Program-made: the position numbers and the translations under genes
From: Eledone cirrhosa
Lineage: Eukaryota
Assembly (NCBI GenBank): GCA_964016885.1
Contig: OZ024747.1
Span: forward strand, 4,464,001 to 4,528,000
Reading direction: 5' to 3'
Length of the DNA: 64,000 nucleotides
The notes under the pieces: model-generated
The model's input: only the letters and a program-made list of their open reading frames with translations
Databases searched by the model: none
What the model was told of the DNA's origin: nothing
Shown here: positions 34,876 to 48,020 of the stretch, one piece after another
Position numbering within the stretch: the first letter of the stretch is position 1
Layout: the number at the start of each line of letters is the position of its first letter

Positions 34876-35045
34876 AGGAAAATAGTCAGGACCCCGACGG
34901 CAGAGCTCAAGCCGTTTCGACGGCTATTTCTGGAGTTCTGCCGTCGGGGTCCTGAACCTTTTGCTATTACCCACTCTACTACCCAAAGTATCAAGTACTC
35001 TGGTGCGTTATTGTCCACCTGGTTCCTAACCACACTTCCTTCATT
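34876..35045 (+). mobile_element. Fold-back element, family F (hammerhead 3' half)
   Basis: Imperfect palindrome at 34886-34955; tail homologous to 47750-47843. Confidence 0.8.
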
Positions 35046-35463
35046 ATATATATATATATAATAATAATGATAATATTGTGTACAGTGCTCAGGTGCACTA
35101 CAACTCATCAAAAGTGTATGTCTAGTACATAGGGTAATGTACAAACGTCAGGAAAATGAACAGTGCATGAGTCATGATATACACATGTGTGCATGTGTAT
35201 GGAAGGGGGACATCAGGTGTAGTTATATATATGTTCATATATATGTGTGTGTGTGTGTGTGTGTGTATTATAAAGAGTCAGAACCCGACAACAGAACTCT
35301 TGTTGTTTCAACAGCAAAGTTAATAATATAACCATGCTCTACTACCCCAAGTATCGAGTACTCTGTAATGGTCTAACCAGTTTCAAACTTAATCCATCCT
35401 GATTTATGTGTATATACATATATATGTATATAACTCATCTATCTGTCTGTCTATCTATGTGTT

Positions 35464-35965
35464 ATGACTATGGTGAAAGGGGTTATATGGTGGACTAGGT
35501 TAAAAGGGCTGAGGTCAGACACCTTTCTCTCTGGCGAGCAACTGATTTGTTTTTTCAAATATCATTTTGGAAGAAGAATCAGGATGGAGAGAGAGGTGCT
35601 GTACCCCAGGATGGAGAGAGAGGTGCTGTACCCCAGGATGGAGAGAGAGGTGCTGTACCCCAGCAAGTTTTATGAAAGGTGGGTGAATGTGGCAAAGATG
35701 GCCCGAGTGGTTGGGCCTTCTCTCTATATAAGCCTGTAGGTTGAGGAAAGAGAGGAAGGGAGTACTAACTCTTGGGGCTCCTGGAGATGAGGGTTGTACA
35801 TTTTTTCGGGGTGTGTACAATCCTGTGTAACACCTACCCCCTATTGGGGATATCAATTGTTATTTGTTATTTTATTAATAGTTTTATTTTCATATACCTG
35901 TATGTAAACTCCCCATTTGTATTTGTCCCCTTCTTTTGTGCCCTTGTGGCTAATAAAGAAATTTA
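35464..35965 (+). mobile_element. Tx1/L1-like LINE ORF2 C-terminus and 3' UTR
   Basis: KGVIWWTRLKG..FFKYHF..ERE..FYERW; 30-bp internal triplication; ends GCCCTTGTGGCTAATAAAGAAAT. Confidence 0.65.
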
Positions 35966-37004
35966 TCTATCTATCCTCTTCAATTCTATACTCTATACTC
36001 TACAATACCCCAACAAACTATGTTAGCTAAATATACCAACATTTCTCCCCTTCTCCTCTCCTACATTTGGTTTTTTTCTTGTTTTTGTTTGTTTTATTTG
36101 TTTTAGTATTTTCCAATTTATCTTCGGGATTTGGATTCTTTGAATGATTTCAATGAAGGCTCAGGAAAAACTTGATCAATACATGATTTTCAATAGGATC
36201 CACTCCCCACCCCCATGCTCAGTCGGTTGGAAAGAAAATTATATATATAGATATATATACATATATATATATATATATATATATATATACATATATATAT
36301 ATATATAATATATATATATGTATATATGTATATACATTTATATCATCATCACCATTTTACATCCGTTCTTCCACGCTAGCATGGGTTAGACGTATATATA
36401 TATATACATATATACATATATGCACACACACATATATATATGTATGTATATATATATATATATATACACACACAAACACACACACGCATATATATATGTA
36501 TATATACGTGCATGTATATAAAACAGAAAAAATCTGGAAAAAAATGTTTAAAAAAAAGCTAATAATCATTCTAAATTGTAAGAAAACATCATTGCTTTCT
36601 AGAATAGATGTAGAGGCTTCTGTTGGTGTGGAAAGTCATCTAATGAGGAGGGTTCCCTCAATGACCACCACCACAGAGAGAGAGACATTACTAAACTGTG
36701 AGACAAAACTATGTAAAAGAACATTCCTTTGAGTGGGAGTGCATTCTGAGTTTCAAGATTTCCTGACCAGTGTATGGGTGGGTGGGTTGAACAGAGTGGG
36801 GATGTGTAGTAGAGGGTGGTAGGTGGTAGAGGGTGGTGGCGTAGTAGAGGGTGGTAGGGTAGGTAGGAGGTTTGATTGTATGTGTGGGTGGTTGTGGTAA
36901 ATGGTGGCTGAGAATGTGACCAAAAAATAAAAGACAGGCAGAAAGACAGATAGAACAGATCTCATTCAGTATTTCATTGTAATGTTGAAGATATTGCTGC
37001 TGAA

Positions 37005-37540
37005 GTGGTTGTGTTGGTGGTAGTGTTGGAGCTAGTATTGGTTGTGGTGGTAGTGTTGGAGCTAGTATTGGTTGTGGTGGTAGTGTTGGAGCTAGTATTG
37101 GTTGTGGTGGTAGTGTTGGAGCTAGTATTGGTTGTGGTGGTAGTGTTGGATCTAGTATTGGTTGTGGTGGTAGTGTTGGAGCTAGTATTGGTTGTGGTAG
37201 TAGTGTTGGAGCTAGTATTGGTTGTGGTGGTAGTGTTGGAGCTAGTATTGGTTGTGGTAGTAGTGTTGGATCTAGTATTGGTTGTGGTAGTAGTGTTGGA
37301 GCTAGTATTGGTTGTGGTGGTAGTGTTGGAGCTAGTATTGGTTGTGGTGGTAGTGTTGGAGCTAGTATTGGTTGTGGTGGTAGTGTTGGAGCTAGTATTG
37401 GTTGTGGTGGTAGTGTTGGAGCTAGTATTGGTTGTGGTAGTAGTGTTGGAGCTAGTATTGGTTGTGGTGGTAGTGTTGGTAGTGTTGGAGCTAGTATTGG
37501 TTGTGGTGGTAGTGTTGGAGCTAGTATTTGTTGTGGTGGT
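37005..37540. repeat. 30-bp minisatellite, ~17 copies
   Basis: Unit GGTGGTAGTGTTGGAGCTAGTATTGGTTGT. Confidence 0.95.
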
Positions 37541-37569
37541 AGTAGTAGTAGTAATAGTAGTAGTAGTAG

Positions 37570-45569: not shown

Positions 45570-45680
45570 ATATATATATATATATATATACATACATATA
45601 TACATACATATATATACATACAGATATATATACATTATATATACATATATATATATATATATGTATATATTATATGTATG

Positions 45681-46950
45681 AGAATAATAGTGTAAAATTA
45701 ATTATGACACCGGTTGAGGGATTTCATGTAACCTTTGCCCTCTCGCCCCCACGGCAATTTGATGTTCAGATTAAAGAGAGGTGGGGGAGTAAATTAACTG
45801 TTTTATATAATTACTTATATAAAACGAGGAAGAAGATGTCGGGAAAGAAATTGAAAAATTTGCCGTCGTTAAAAAAATAAAATTCAGCCATTACCCCTCC
45901 CATGATGCAACGGGGCAGGTAAATAATTTGACGATTTAGCGACATCAGTTCCTTAAATTTCTCTACACCGAAATCTCAAGAACTCTGTCTTTACTTAATC
46001 GCAAAAATGGGTGCAAAAAAAAGTTTCAGTTGGAGAAGCTTTTTGTGTATGGCTAGGTTGCCAGGTTACCCTATGGCAAGAGGGACCCCGGGGGTCCCAA
46101 CGCACTATTTCAGATCCAATGCTTGGCGTTAAAAAAATATCTGAAATCTAAGACGTAGAACAAAAATCAAAATAAAAACAAATAAAACAATTTTGCCATC
46201 GGGCAACCTATAAATATGTATATATACAACACATAAATATGTATGGACACACTGGAAGAGGAAGACCGAGGTTGACATATGTTGATGCCCTAAGGACAGA
46301 CACTGGTCTCTTGGAGACGAAGGACATGGCAGCGATGATGAGGGACAGAGACTGCTGGAGAGAACTCGTCCATGGATCTCGGGAATTTTACACGCCCTAG
46401 ATATATAGATTCATATAAATATATATATACATTATATCATTTGCATGTTAAAATAAAATAAATTTATTTCTGCAGTGCCACCTCGAGATTGAACCTCTCA
46501 CCTCATTACGAAAGAATGAATACCCATTACTCCTACCAACGAAGCTACCAAAGAACTTGCTGAAAGTTTATATATTTAAAGTATTAAACCCTTAAATCTA
46601 TTTATTTAATTATATATATGGAAAGTGCAGCGATAGAAGATAAATAAAACTTCAAAATAATCATAATATCCGAGATTGTTTTGAGCAAAAATGGGTGCAA
46701 AAAAGTTTCAGTTGGAGAAGCTTTTATTTATGTATTAATATGTATCTCTCTCTGTATATAAATATAATTACTTAACACACACACACACATATATATATAC
46801 ATATATATAAATACATACATTATATATATATATGAGAGCAGGGGCACTCCGTCGGTTGCGACGACGAGAATTGCTTTTTTTCCTAGAAATAAAATTTTAC
46901 TAACAGCACAATGTTTATTGTTGTTATTGTTGTTCTGTCTATTGTTATTG
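45681..46950. repeat. Left arm of the internal inverted duplication (blocks A then B)
   Basis: Reverse-complement match to 48095-49200. Confidence 0.9.
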
Positions 46951-47292
46951 TTGTTATATATATATATATATATATATACAATGCTATTACTCCAGTAAAC
47001 TGCTGAGTGGTCTAAATCAGTTATAAACATTTATGTTTGTCGGACTTCCAACTAATTAAATACAACTTCTACTTATATATATATATATGGGTAAATGAAG
47101 TATTTCCGTCGAAAAGGACCAGGAAAAAAGAGTGCTATATATATATATATATATATATATATATATATATATATATATATATATATATATATATATATAT
47201 ATATATATATATATATATATATATATATATATATATATATATATATATATATATATATATATATATATATATATATATATATATACACACAA

Positions 47293-47690
47293 GTGGCTTA
47301 GTGGTTAGAGCATTGGGCTTGCAATCGAAAGGTTGTGAGTTCAATTCTCGGACCGGGTGATATGTTGTTTCCTTGAACAAGACACTTTATTTCACATTGC
47401 TCCAGTTTACTCAGCTGTAGAAATGAGATGATAGGACTGGGGTCCCTATCATTCCACAGCCAGCAAAGTGGTCGTGGAGGTGCCACGGCAAAAAATCACC
47501 CATCCCTCACTGTAAAGTGGATGTGTTAGGATGTGTTGGTGTTAGGAAGGGCATCCAGCTGTAGAAATCAAGCCAGAATCAGTTCCCGTATGAGCAAGAC
47601 AAGGTCAGCCGAACGGACACTGCCCACAACAGGACAACCCGTCTAACCCATGCTAGCGTGAAAGAACGGACGTAAAACGGTGATGATCAT
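47293..47690 (+). mobile_element. Full-length family-C SINE
   Basis: tRNA-like head GGCTTAGTGGTTAGAGC..GAGTTCAATTC, CORE-like TCCTTGAACAAGACACTT, tail matching 60753-61012. Confidence 0.88.
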
Positions 47691-47700
47691 GATATATAAT

Positions 47701-48020
47701 AGTCCAGAAATAGCCGTCGAAACGGCTTGAGCTCTGCCGTCGGGGTCCTGAACATTTTCCTATGACCCACTCTACTACCCTAAGTATTGAGTACTCTGGT
47801 GCGTTCTGGTCCACCTGGTTCCTTACCACACTTCCTTCGTTATATATATATATATATATAGTATGACCCCGACGGCAGAGCTCAAGCCGTTTCGACGGCT
47901 ATTTCTGGACGAAACGGCTTGAGTTCTGCCGTCGGGGTCATACTTTTTCCTATTTCTCACTCTACTACCCTAAGTATGGTGCTTTATGGTCCATCTGGTT
48001 CCTTACCACAATTCCTTTCT
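47701..48020 (+). mobile_element. Two family-F copies, the second folded back (palindrome 47860-47944)
   Basis: Both contain GAAAC-GGC-TTGAGYTCT-GCC-GTC-GGGGTC. Confidence 0.85.

What the first reader, a model, noticed from the sequence alone, without database searches (positions are those of the whole stretch)
34876..48020. Family F: fold-backs that turn around inside hammerhead stem II
The copies carry the 3' half of a canonical HHR: C-GAAAC-GGC-[9-nt loop]-GCC-GTC then GGGGTC (stem III ACGGC/GCCGT, GUC site). None has CTGANGA. In three copies it is replaced by an inverted copy, with different junctions: 45509/10 (exact centre of GACGGCTAATTCTGGAC|GTCCAGAATTAGCCGTC), ~47900 and ~34930. The fourth (47701) is truncated at the same hairpin. 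Inference: cDNA self-primes on the long stem II hairpin, so the ribozyme fold dictates palindrome formation and destroys the catalytic core.
Basis: partly seen in the sequence, partly recalled or inferred. Interest (0 to 1): 0.75.

Follow-up and report, generated by a model that had tools for sequence, protein, structure and literature searches.

The report
Penelope copies starting inside their hammerhead
These fold-backs are ordinary head-to-head end fragments of an abundant Penelope-type jumping gene whose full copies carry a complete but variant self-cutting RNA motif, and the fragments lack its first half most likely because the element's messenger RNA starts in the middle of that motif, not because the motif's fold makes the copying enzyme turn around.

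Summary
The four copies are real and carry the 3' half of a hammerhead. They are short pLTR fragments of a protein-coding Penelope-like element with Hydra-clade motifs (55,578 exact half-motif matches in the genome). The parent has an intact type I fold that a CTGANGA search misses: its core is UUGANAA, the known U3-A8 variant, with a long, covarying stem II (2,901 exact copies). Breakpoints cluster, but self-priming on stem II is not supported. None of 90 short copies reaches the stem's 5' arm. The two arms end at two different fixed priming sites, and the tail-less arm often holds sequence the tailed arm lacks. Arms stop at a conserved initiator-like TYAGT in loop II, often with an extra G absent from the parent (1,897 versus 383 control matches), the usual footprint of a copied 5' cap. 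Best reading: transcription starts inside the ribozyme, and two target-primed cDNAs run off the capped end and join head to head. Cleavage and the start site are untested at RNA level. The scan noted similar U3-A8 and head-to-head Penelope ends earlier on other DNA.

The parts
34874..34934 (-). Copy 1, inverted tail-less arm (-16 to +44), outer end in (TA)n
34933..35047 (+). Copy 1, tailed arm (+10 to +124); 2-nt overlap with the inverted arm
45370..45509 (-). Copy 2, tailed arm (from -17 to the tail end), subfamily F2
45510..45569 (+). Copy 2, tail-less arm (-17 to +42); blunt head-to-head junction at 45509/10
47700..47843 (+). Copy 3, single tailed arm from -19 to +124. Inferred transcription start (A, -18) at 47701; GAAA core half at 47719-47722; stem III 47722-47740; predicted cleavage after 47741; stem I 3' strand 47742-47746
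   Evidence: start site and cleavage inferred
47860..47910 (-). Copy 4, inverted tail-less arm (-17 to about +32)
47910..48023 (+). Copy 4, tailed arm (from -1), with a short internal deletion in the tail
28249..28344 (.).

Best explanation
The fold-backs are short end fragments of a coding Penelope-like retrotransposon whose full copies carry a complete U3-A8 hammerhead fold, and they likely arise because transcription starts inside that ribozyme's loop II, so that two cDNAs primed on the two strands of a (TA)n target would run off the capped RNA end and be joined head to head. Shown in sequence: the parent (pLTR-ORF-pLTR, units of 3.1-3.5 kb, a 716-aa RT plus GIY-YIG ORF), the full hammerhead fold, the two fixed outer ends (+42/+44 and +124), the pile-up of inner ends at -24..-10, the conserved TYAGT motif with A at -18, and the extra G before it. 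Inferred: that -18 (and probably -22) is a capped Pol II start; that the RT primes at two internal sites in the 5' pLTR, as shown in vitro for an anole Poseidon element; that both target strands are extended; and that junctions form by microhomology, filler and template jumping. A consequence, also inferred: an RNA started here lacks the 5' half of its first ribozyme and cannot cut off its own cap, so only downstream pLTR copies are transcribed whole.
For: Parent: full-length loci L103, L113, L115, L123, L096 and an intact ORF in tandem array L311. Core in 73 long arms not selected on the core: U3 66, U4 72, G5 70, A6 71, A8 72, A9 65 of 73; position 7 takes all four bases. 2,901 exact full-motif matches, control 0. 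In 23 hand-picked arms 93.5% of cells pair, with three stem II pairs changed on both sides between subfamilies; slid controls pair 24-52%. L104 folds into the three-way junction at z -2.3. Unbiased set of the first 100 tail matches on C1: 10 long, 90 short, 76 two-armed; the inverted arm ends at +42/+44 in 64 of 76; it reaches more than 10 nt further 5' than the tailed arm in 17 of 76, the reverse in 4. In L088 the tail-less arm is 1.6 kb long and the tailed arm stops near -31, so neither is a copy of the other. Extra G: 1,897 of 9,305 arm matches against 383 for the control base; 0 of 47 long arms have G there; one base earlier the same letter is the rarest, 15 of 100 rows tallied by eye. TYAGT sits at the same offset in F1, F2 and F3 although loop II has diverged. 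14 of 19 ORF-linked pLTRs that end within 60 nt also end in -24..-10. Cap-derived G: passages in PMC4859970 and PMC9341517. Two RT start sites and extension of both strands: PMC11167929.
Against: No RNA evidence for the start site or for cleavage. 63 of 100 rows (tallied by eye) continue with templated letters past -18, mostly to -19..-23, often with expanded T-runs, so there is no single start and part of the pile-up may be uncapped ends. About a fifth of the extra-G rows (21 of 100) can be read as a templated base of the other arm. Strand matches count two-sided junctions twice. 50 of 71 ORF-linked pLTRs run more than 100 nt upstream of the inferred start, so read-through RNA or template jumps are also common. 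Central deletions in palindromes could produce some of the arm asymmetry. The stem II covariation is about three events shared by descent, and two of five measures do not beat the shuffles; stems I and III are nearly invariant and show no two-sided change. 27 of the first 100 full motifs have a C3-A8 mismatch (tallied by eye), and one F3 copy prefers another fold by 8.8 kcal/mol.
Confidence: 0.7

Rival explanations
1. One reading: the cDNA copies through the long stem II, snaps back on its own hairpin and self-primes, so the ribozyme fold sets the palindrome centre.
For: A long stem II exists, junctions fall between its strands, and the two arms match the same major subfamily in 72 of 76 loci.
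Against: 0 of 90 short copies reach the 5' arm of stem II; 1 of 76 keeps the inner hairpin loop; junctions are overlaps, blunt joins or filler. The second arm ends at its own fixed site, and in many loci each arm holds sequence the other lacks. Long two-armed copies join hundreds of bases away from the ribozyme.
Confidence: 0.05
2. The RNA end at -18..-23 is not a transcription start but an RT stall at structure, or a nuclease cut in the U-rich loop II; the extra G is ordinary untemplated addition.
For: Most arms that pass -18 end in the T-run at -19..-23 without an extra G, and some have long T expansions. F1 has a small hairpin whose 3' strand covers this spot.
Against: The end stays tied to TYAGT in F2 and F3, where loop II differs. 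The extra letter is five times the control at -18 and the rarest letter at -17.
Confidence: 0.15
3. One cDNA runs off the capped end, then the RT jumps onto that same cDNA and copies it back until a TAT microhomology lets it join the other target strand.
For: Both arms often share the same end state (extra G on both) and the same private variant (window copy 45370-45569); the outer site is followed by TAT in the parent.
Against: Cannot give loci where the tail-less arm is longer at its 5' end than the tailed arm (17 of 76 by more than 10 nt; L088 by 1.6 kb) without later deletion.
Confidence: 0.1

Closest known systems
Hydra clade of C-terminal EN+ Penelope-like elements, e.g. Hydra-1_Obim (Craig et al. 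2021, PMC8557442; passages, section 11 and supplement searches read)
   Same: RW[KR], DKT, CxCX5C linker, no CCHH, CxxC and CxH motifs, (TA)n targeting, inverted 5'-truncated copy and one-sided tail. The ORF start resembles Hydra-1_Obim by eye.
   Different: A different family: the HHR listed for Hydra-1_Obim has a CTGAAGA core and an 8-nt loop II, and the F motif was not found in the supplement text held (long lines there are cut). The tail is about 80 nt, against the 30-40 bp described for PLEs.
U3-A8 minimal hammerheads of Schistosoma Cercyon PLEs (Cervera and de la Pena 2014, PMC4209133, parts 1-2 of 4 read); natural U3-A8 cores (Perreault et al. 2011, PMC3088659, passages)
   Same: Type I fold in a pLTR, U3-A8 core, G10.1-C11.1 pair, palindromic loop III, pairs of motifs on opposite strands.
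   Different: Full 5-bp stem III, stem II with a 9-bp distal helix and a 30-33 nt loop, and an inferred transcription start inside loop II. [quoted passage not shown]
Poseidon from Anolis carolinensis, PAc (Frangieh et al. 2024, PMC11167929, parts 1-2 of 4 read)
   Same: Two internal RT start sites that define the tail, both target strands cut and extended, uncut RNA as the main template.
   Different: Different PLE clade; those parts do not map a capped start inside the ribozyme or explain head-to-head junctions.
Untemplated 5' G of full-length L1 and SVA insertions; L1 twin priming (PMC4859970, PMC9341517, passages)
   Same: An extra G at the 5' end read as a copied cap; inversion by priming on both target strands.
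   Different: In L1 twin priming the two primers copy different parts of one RNA (recalled); here both arms copy the same 5' stretch.

Membership tests
Hydra-clade PLE | Single ORF, RT with C-terminal GIY-YIG endonuclease | tested here: met
   716-aa natural ORF in L311 with YRDD at 347 and a GIY-YIG-type motif at 590. Pfam gave no hit and only a weak RVT_1 hit, E 0.046, on L112, so this rests on motifs.
Hydra-clade PLE | RWK motif and DKG changed to DKT | tested here: met
   RWR at 36, DKT at 116 (criteria)
Hydra-clade PLE | CxCX5C linker, CCHH absent, CxxC and CxH near the C-terminus | tested here: met
   CxCX5C at 571; one cysteine only between the GIY and YIG halves; CxxC at 669; CxH at 697
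Hydra-clade PLE | Insertion into (TA)n | tested here: met
   Outer ends abut TA repeats in nearly all loci listed
Hydra-clade PLE | Placement in the Hydra clade of an RT tree | not tested
   No tree was built; reference proteins were seen only as cut supplement text
Type I hammerhead ribozyme | Core boxes with a Watson-Crick 3-8 pair | tested here: met
   U3-A8 in most long arms; a C3-A8 mismatch in 27 of 100 listed full motifs. The canonical CUGANGA itself is not present.
Type I hammerhead ribozyme | Stems I, II and III around the core, G10.1-C11.1, A15.1-U16.1, H17 | tested here: met
   the hammerhead fold is within 0.4-0.8 kcal/mol of the optimum in 3 of 4 copies folded
Type I hammerhead ribozyme | Self-cleavage after position 17 | not testable with these tools
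   No biochemical test; only 4 of 90 short copies start at +22..+24
Non-LTR retrozyme | Non-coding tandem unit with a hammerhead in each repeat | tested here: not met
   Tandem units are 3.1-3.5 kb and coding; short copies are dispersed and lack the core's 5' half
Neptune/Nematis PLE (my first guess) | CX2-5CxxC linker, CCHH, DKG | tested here: not met
   against the criteria

The most novel reading that the evidence does not exclude
The pLTR works like a retroviral LTR: the start site inside loop II disarms the 5' ribozyme, the whole 3' ribozyme cuts the RNA's 3' end and leaves a 40-nt terminal repeat (-18..+22), the tens of thousands of short copies are aborted strong-stop cDNAs, and a jump across that repeat rebuilds the upstream pLTR and explains Penelope partial tandems.
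Probability: 0.2. Interest if true: 0.75.

Novelty: new variant of a known kind. Interest (0 to 1): 0.42.

Why it matters
Why PLEs keep a hammerhead, and how they form inverted and partial-tandem ends, are open questions in the papers read. This family gives a genome-scale readout: thousands of junctions appear to record the capped RNA start and both priming sites, and they place the start inside the ribozyme, a simple way to keep the coding RNA capped while downstream copies stay able to cut. It also shows that CUGANGA-based screens miss a family with about 2,900 whole motifs. The element class, the U3-A8 core and the inverted-with-tail layout are already known, and the scan has met them before, which limits surprise.

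Tried and rejected
CTGANGA 4-30 nt upstream: 37 matches, no family. Rfam found no hammerhead in the window among the 150 of 192 matches shown. I predicted that GGTGT copies would carry a compensating change in stem I: of 20 loci fetched, 1 did; GGTGT proved a minority variant across subfamilies, so stem I has no covariation support. The apparent stem III covariation in the window copy near 35290 is not a family (0 matches) and was dropped. No 5'-end peak at the cleavage site. No cap scar at -19 in 47 long arms, so the strand-transfer idea gained no support from that test. One search used an F2a reference with private mutations that made a false peak at -10; one search replaced it and gives the numbers used. 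The short RNA has no unusually stable fold (z -0.9). The ESM Atlas gave no result. HDV-like, twister and type II permuted readings were considered by eye from recalled consensus and did not fit. Neptune assignment was replaced by Hydra. Searches that found no paper on a start site inside a PLE hammerhead or on strong-stop transfer in PLEs: (listings only, apart from the papers named); searches gave nothing used.
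Full report
Observation. The window is G000:C7:4464001-4528000 of a 3.0-Gb animal genome; its repeats look octopus-like (recalled, not tested). The four copies are present as described, each with GAAA, a stem III with a 9-nt loop, UC and a G-rich strand, and none has CTGANGA within 60 nt upstream. I number from G12, the G of GAAA, as 0. The half motif has 55,578 exact genome matches, control 0; the tail motif has 45,789.

The parent. Five of the first 30 loci continued upstream. 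Walking on gave pLTR-ORF-pLTR elements with units of about 3.1 kb, and tandem arrays with a period near 3.5 kb. Array L311 has an intact 716-aa ORF and the 700 nt around its two pLTRs are identical. Its motifs are those Craig et al. 2021 give for the Hydra clade: RWR, DKT, CxCX5C linker, no CCHH, CxxC and CxH. No tree was built, and Pfam gave no hit. The nearest published family, Hydra-1_Obim, has a different hammerhead.

The missing half exists. About 50 nt upstream of GAAA the parent has a strand that pairs with the G-rich strand as stem I, then UUGANAA, then the 5' strand of stem II. In 73 long arms not selected on the core, positions 3-6, 8 and 9 are conserved in 65-72 arms each and position 7 takes all four bases. 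The full motif has 2,901 exact matches; a diverged subfamily F3 has 187 by its own pattern. On 23 hand-picked arms the named structure pairs in 93.5% of cells, with three stem II pairs changed on both sides; these are few events shared by descent, and stems I and III show no two-sided change. U3-A8 is a known natural core, reported in Schistosoma PLEs and described as active in vitro. 27 of the first 100 full motifs have a C3-A8 mismatch (by eye), so cleavage may be weak or dispensable. CTGANGA near the half motif occurs 37 times and forms no family.

Breakpoints. I took the first 100 exact tail matches on C1 and mapped both arms (one search had a faulty reference). 10 are long and 90 short; 76 have an inverted arm. 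Tailed arms start in -24..-10 in 51 of 90; 37 start later, spread to +64; 2 start at -28 and -35; none starts between -60 and -36. Inverted arms have their inner end in -24..-10 in 56 of 76. Only 4 of 90 start at the cleavage site. The inverted arm's outer end is +42 or +44 in 64 of 76; the tailed arm ends at +124. This is the known PLE layout of an inverted truncated copy with a one-sided tail, and matches the two RT start sites shown for PAc, which also extends both target strands.

Self-priming on stem II fails. It predicts junctions holding loop II and the stem's 5' strand. None of 90 does; one of 76 keeps the small inner hairpin. Junctions are overlaps of 1-6 nt (34 of 76), blunt (16) or filled (26), and fillers are often re-copies of nearby element sequence. 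The tail-less arm reaches more than 10 nt further 5' than the tailed arm in 17 of 76 loci (reverse in 4), and in L088 by 1.6 kb; then neither arm can be a copy of the other unless deletion followed.

What sets the end. A TYAGT motif with A at -18 is kept in F1, F2 and F3 while the rest of loop II diverged; it resembles the metazoan initiator (consensus recalled). Among two-armed junctions whose arm reaches -18, the next letter corresponds to a G absent from the parent in 1,897 of 9,305 strand matches, against 383 for the control letter; 0 of 47 long arms have G there. One base earlier that letter is the rarest of three, 15 of 100 rows (by eye). About a fifth of the extra-G rows are ambiguous (21 of 100). 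An untemplated 5' G is the accepted sign of a copied cap in L1 and SVA, and D. virilis Penelope has an internal promoter with an initiator. Against a single start: 63 of 100 rows run on with templated letters, mostly to -19..-23, some with a further G at about -23 and some with long T-runs. Among 71 pLTRs that continue into the ORF leader (70 of the 291 matches fetched, plus a second unit in L311), 50 extend more than 100 nt upstream, 2 end between -99 and -61, and 14 of the other 19 end in -24..-10; L264 and L327 join such an end directly to ORF sequence, as a template jump would.

Mechanism. Most likely (0.7): a capped RNA starts in loop II; the RT primes at +124 and at +42/+44 on the two nicked strands of a (TA)n target; both cDNAs run off after 60-140 nt and are joined head to head. 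Sequence features are shown; the start site, the cap, cleavage and twin priming are inferred. Rivals: RT stall or nuclease cut (0.15), jump onto its own cDNA (0.1), stem II snap-back (0.05). The bolder reading, an LTR-like terminal repeat with strong-stop transfer (0.2), is not excluded but gained no support from the cap-scar test, and PAc uses uncut RNA.

Novelty. The clade, the U3-A8 core and the layout are known. I found no paper placing a start site inside a PLE hammerhead. The scan's own notes report U3-A8 long-stem hammerheads of Hydra-type elements elsewhere in this genome and a like reading of head-to-head ends in another genome; a sequence look-up of this family returned nothing. Papers seen: PMC8557442 passages, section 11 and supplement searches; PMC11167929 and PMC4209133 parts 1-2 of 4; bioRxiv 10.64898/2026.07.22.740005 part 1 of 5 (its supplements were not seen and could list related motifs); PMC3088659, PMC2377424, PMC9341517 and PMC4859970 passages only.

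Noticed in passing
window 6940 (+), 41278 (-), 57715 (-), 59622 (-): Another repeat family with a canonical minimal hammerhead (CUGAUGA core, short stem II, palindromic stem III region), intact at 6940 and decayed elsewhere.
   Followed up: partly
window 45679-46702 and 48197-49202: Large inverted repeat at 97-98% identity flanking the region that holds copies 3 and 4.
   Followed up: no
window 56528-56876, 45142-45328, 44977-45148, 20667-21076: Further fold-back palindromes of other repeat families.
   Followed up: no
window 34077-34400 and 47293-47690: tRNA-derived SINE-like repeats (weak Rfam tRNA match at 47293-47354); copy 3 sits directly at the end of the second.
   Followed up: no
window 35278-35385: Decayed F-related arm and tail fragment; its apparent stem III covariation is not a family.
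   Followed up: yes
G000:C1:91476610-91487370 and C1:437200240-437210966 (L275-L278, L311): Tandem arrays of the coding element with about 3.5-kb period, an intact ORF and identical pLTRs in L311: a young subfamily.
   Followed up: partly
tail, +45..+80 (window 47764-47800): The tail resembles by eye the 3' end of the record listed just before Hydra-1_Obim in the Craig et al. supplement; scan notes describe a conserved hairpin there.
   Followed up: no
L006:1-1470 and L237:4401-5342: F ends joined to or interleaved with ORF pieces of other Penelope-like families, suggesting template jumps between families or nested insertion.
   Followed up: no
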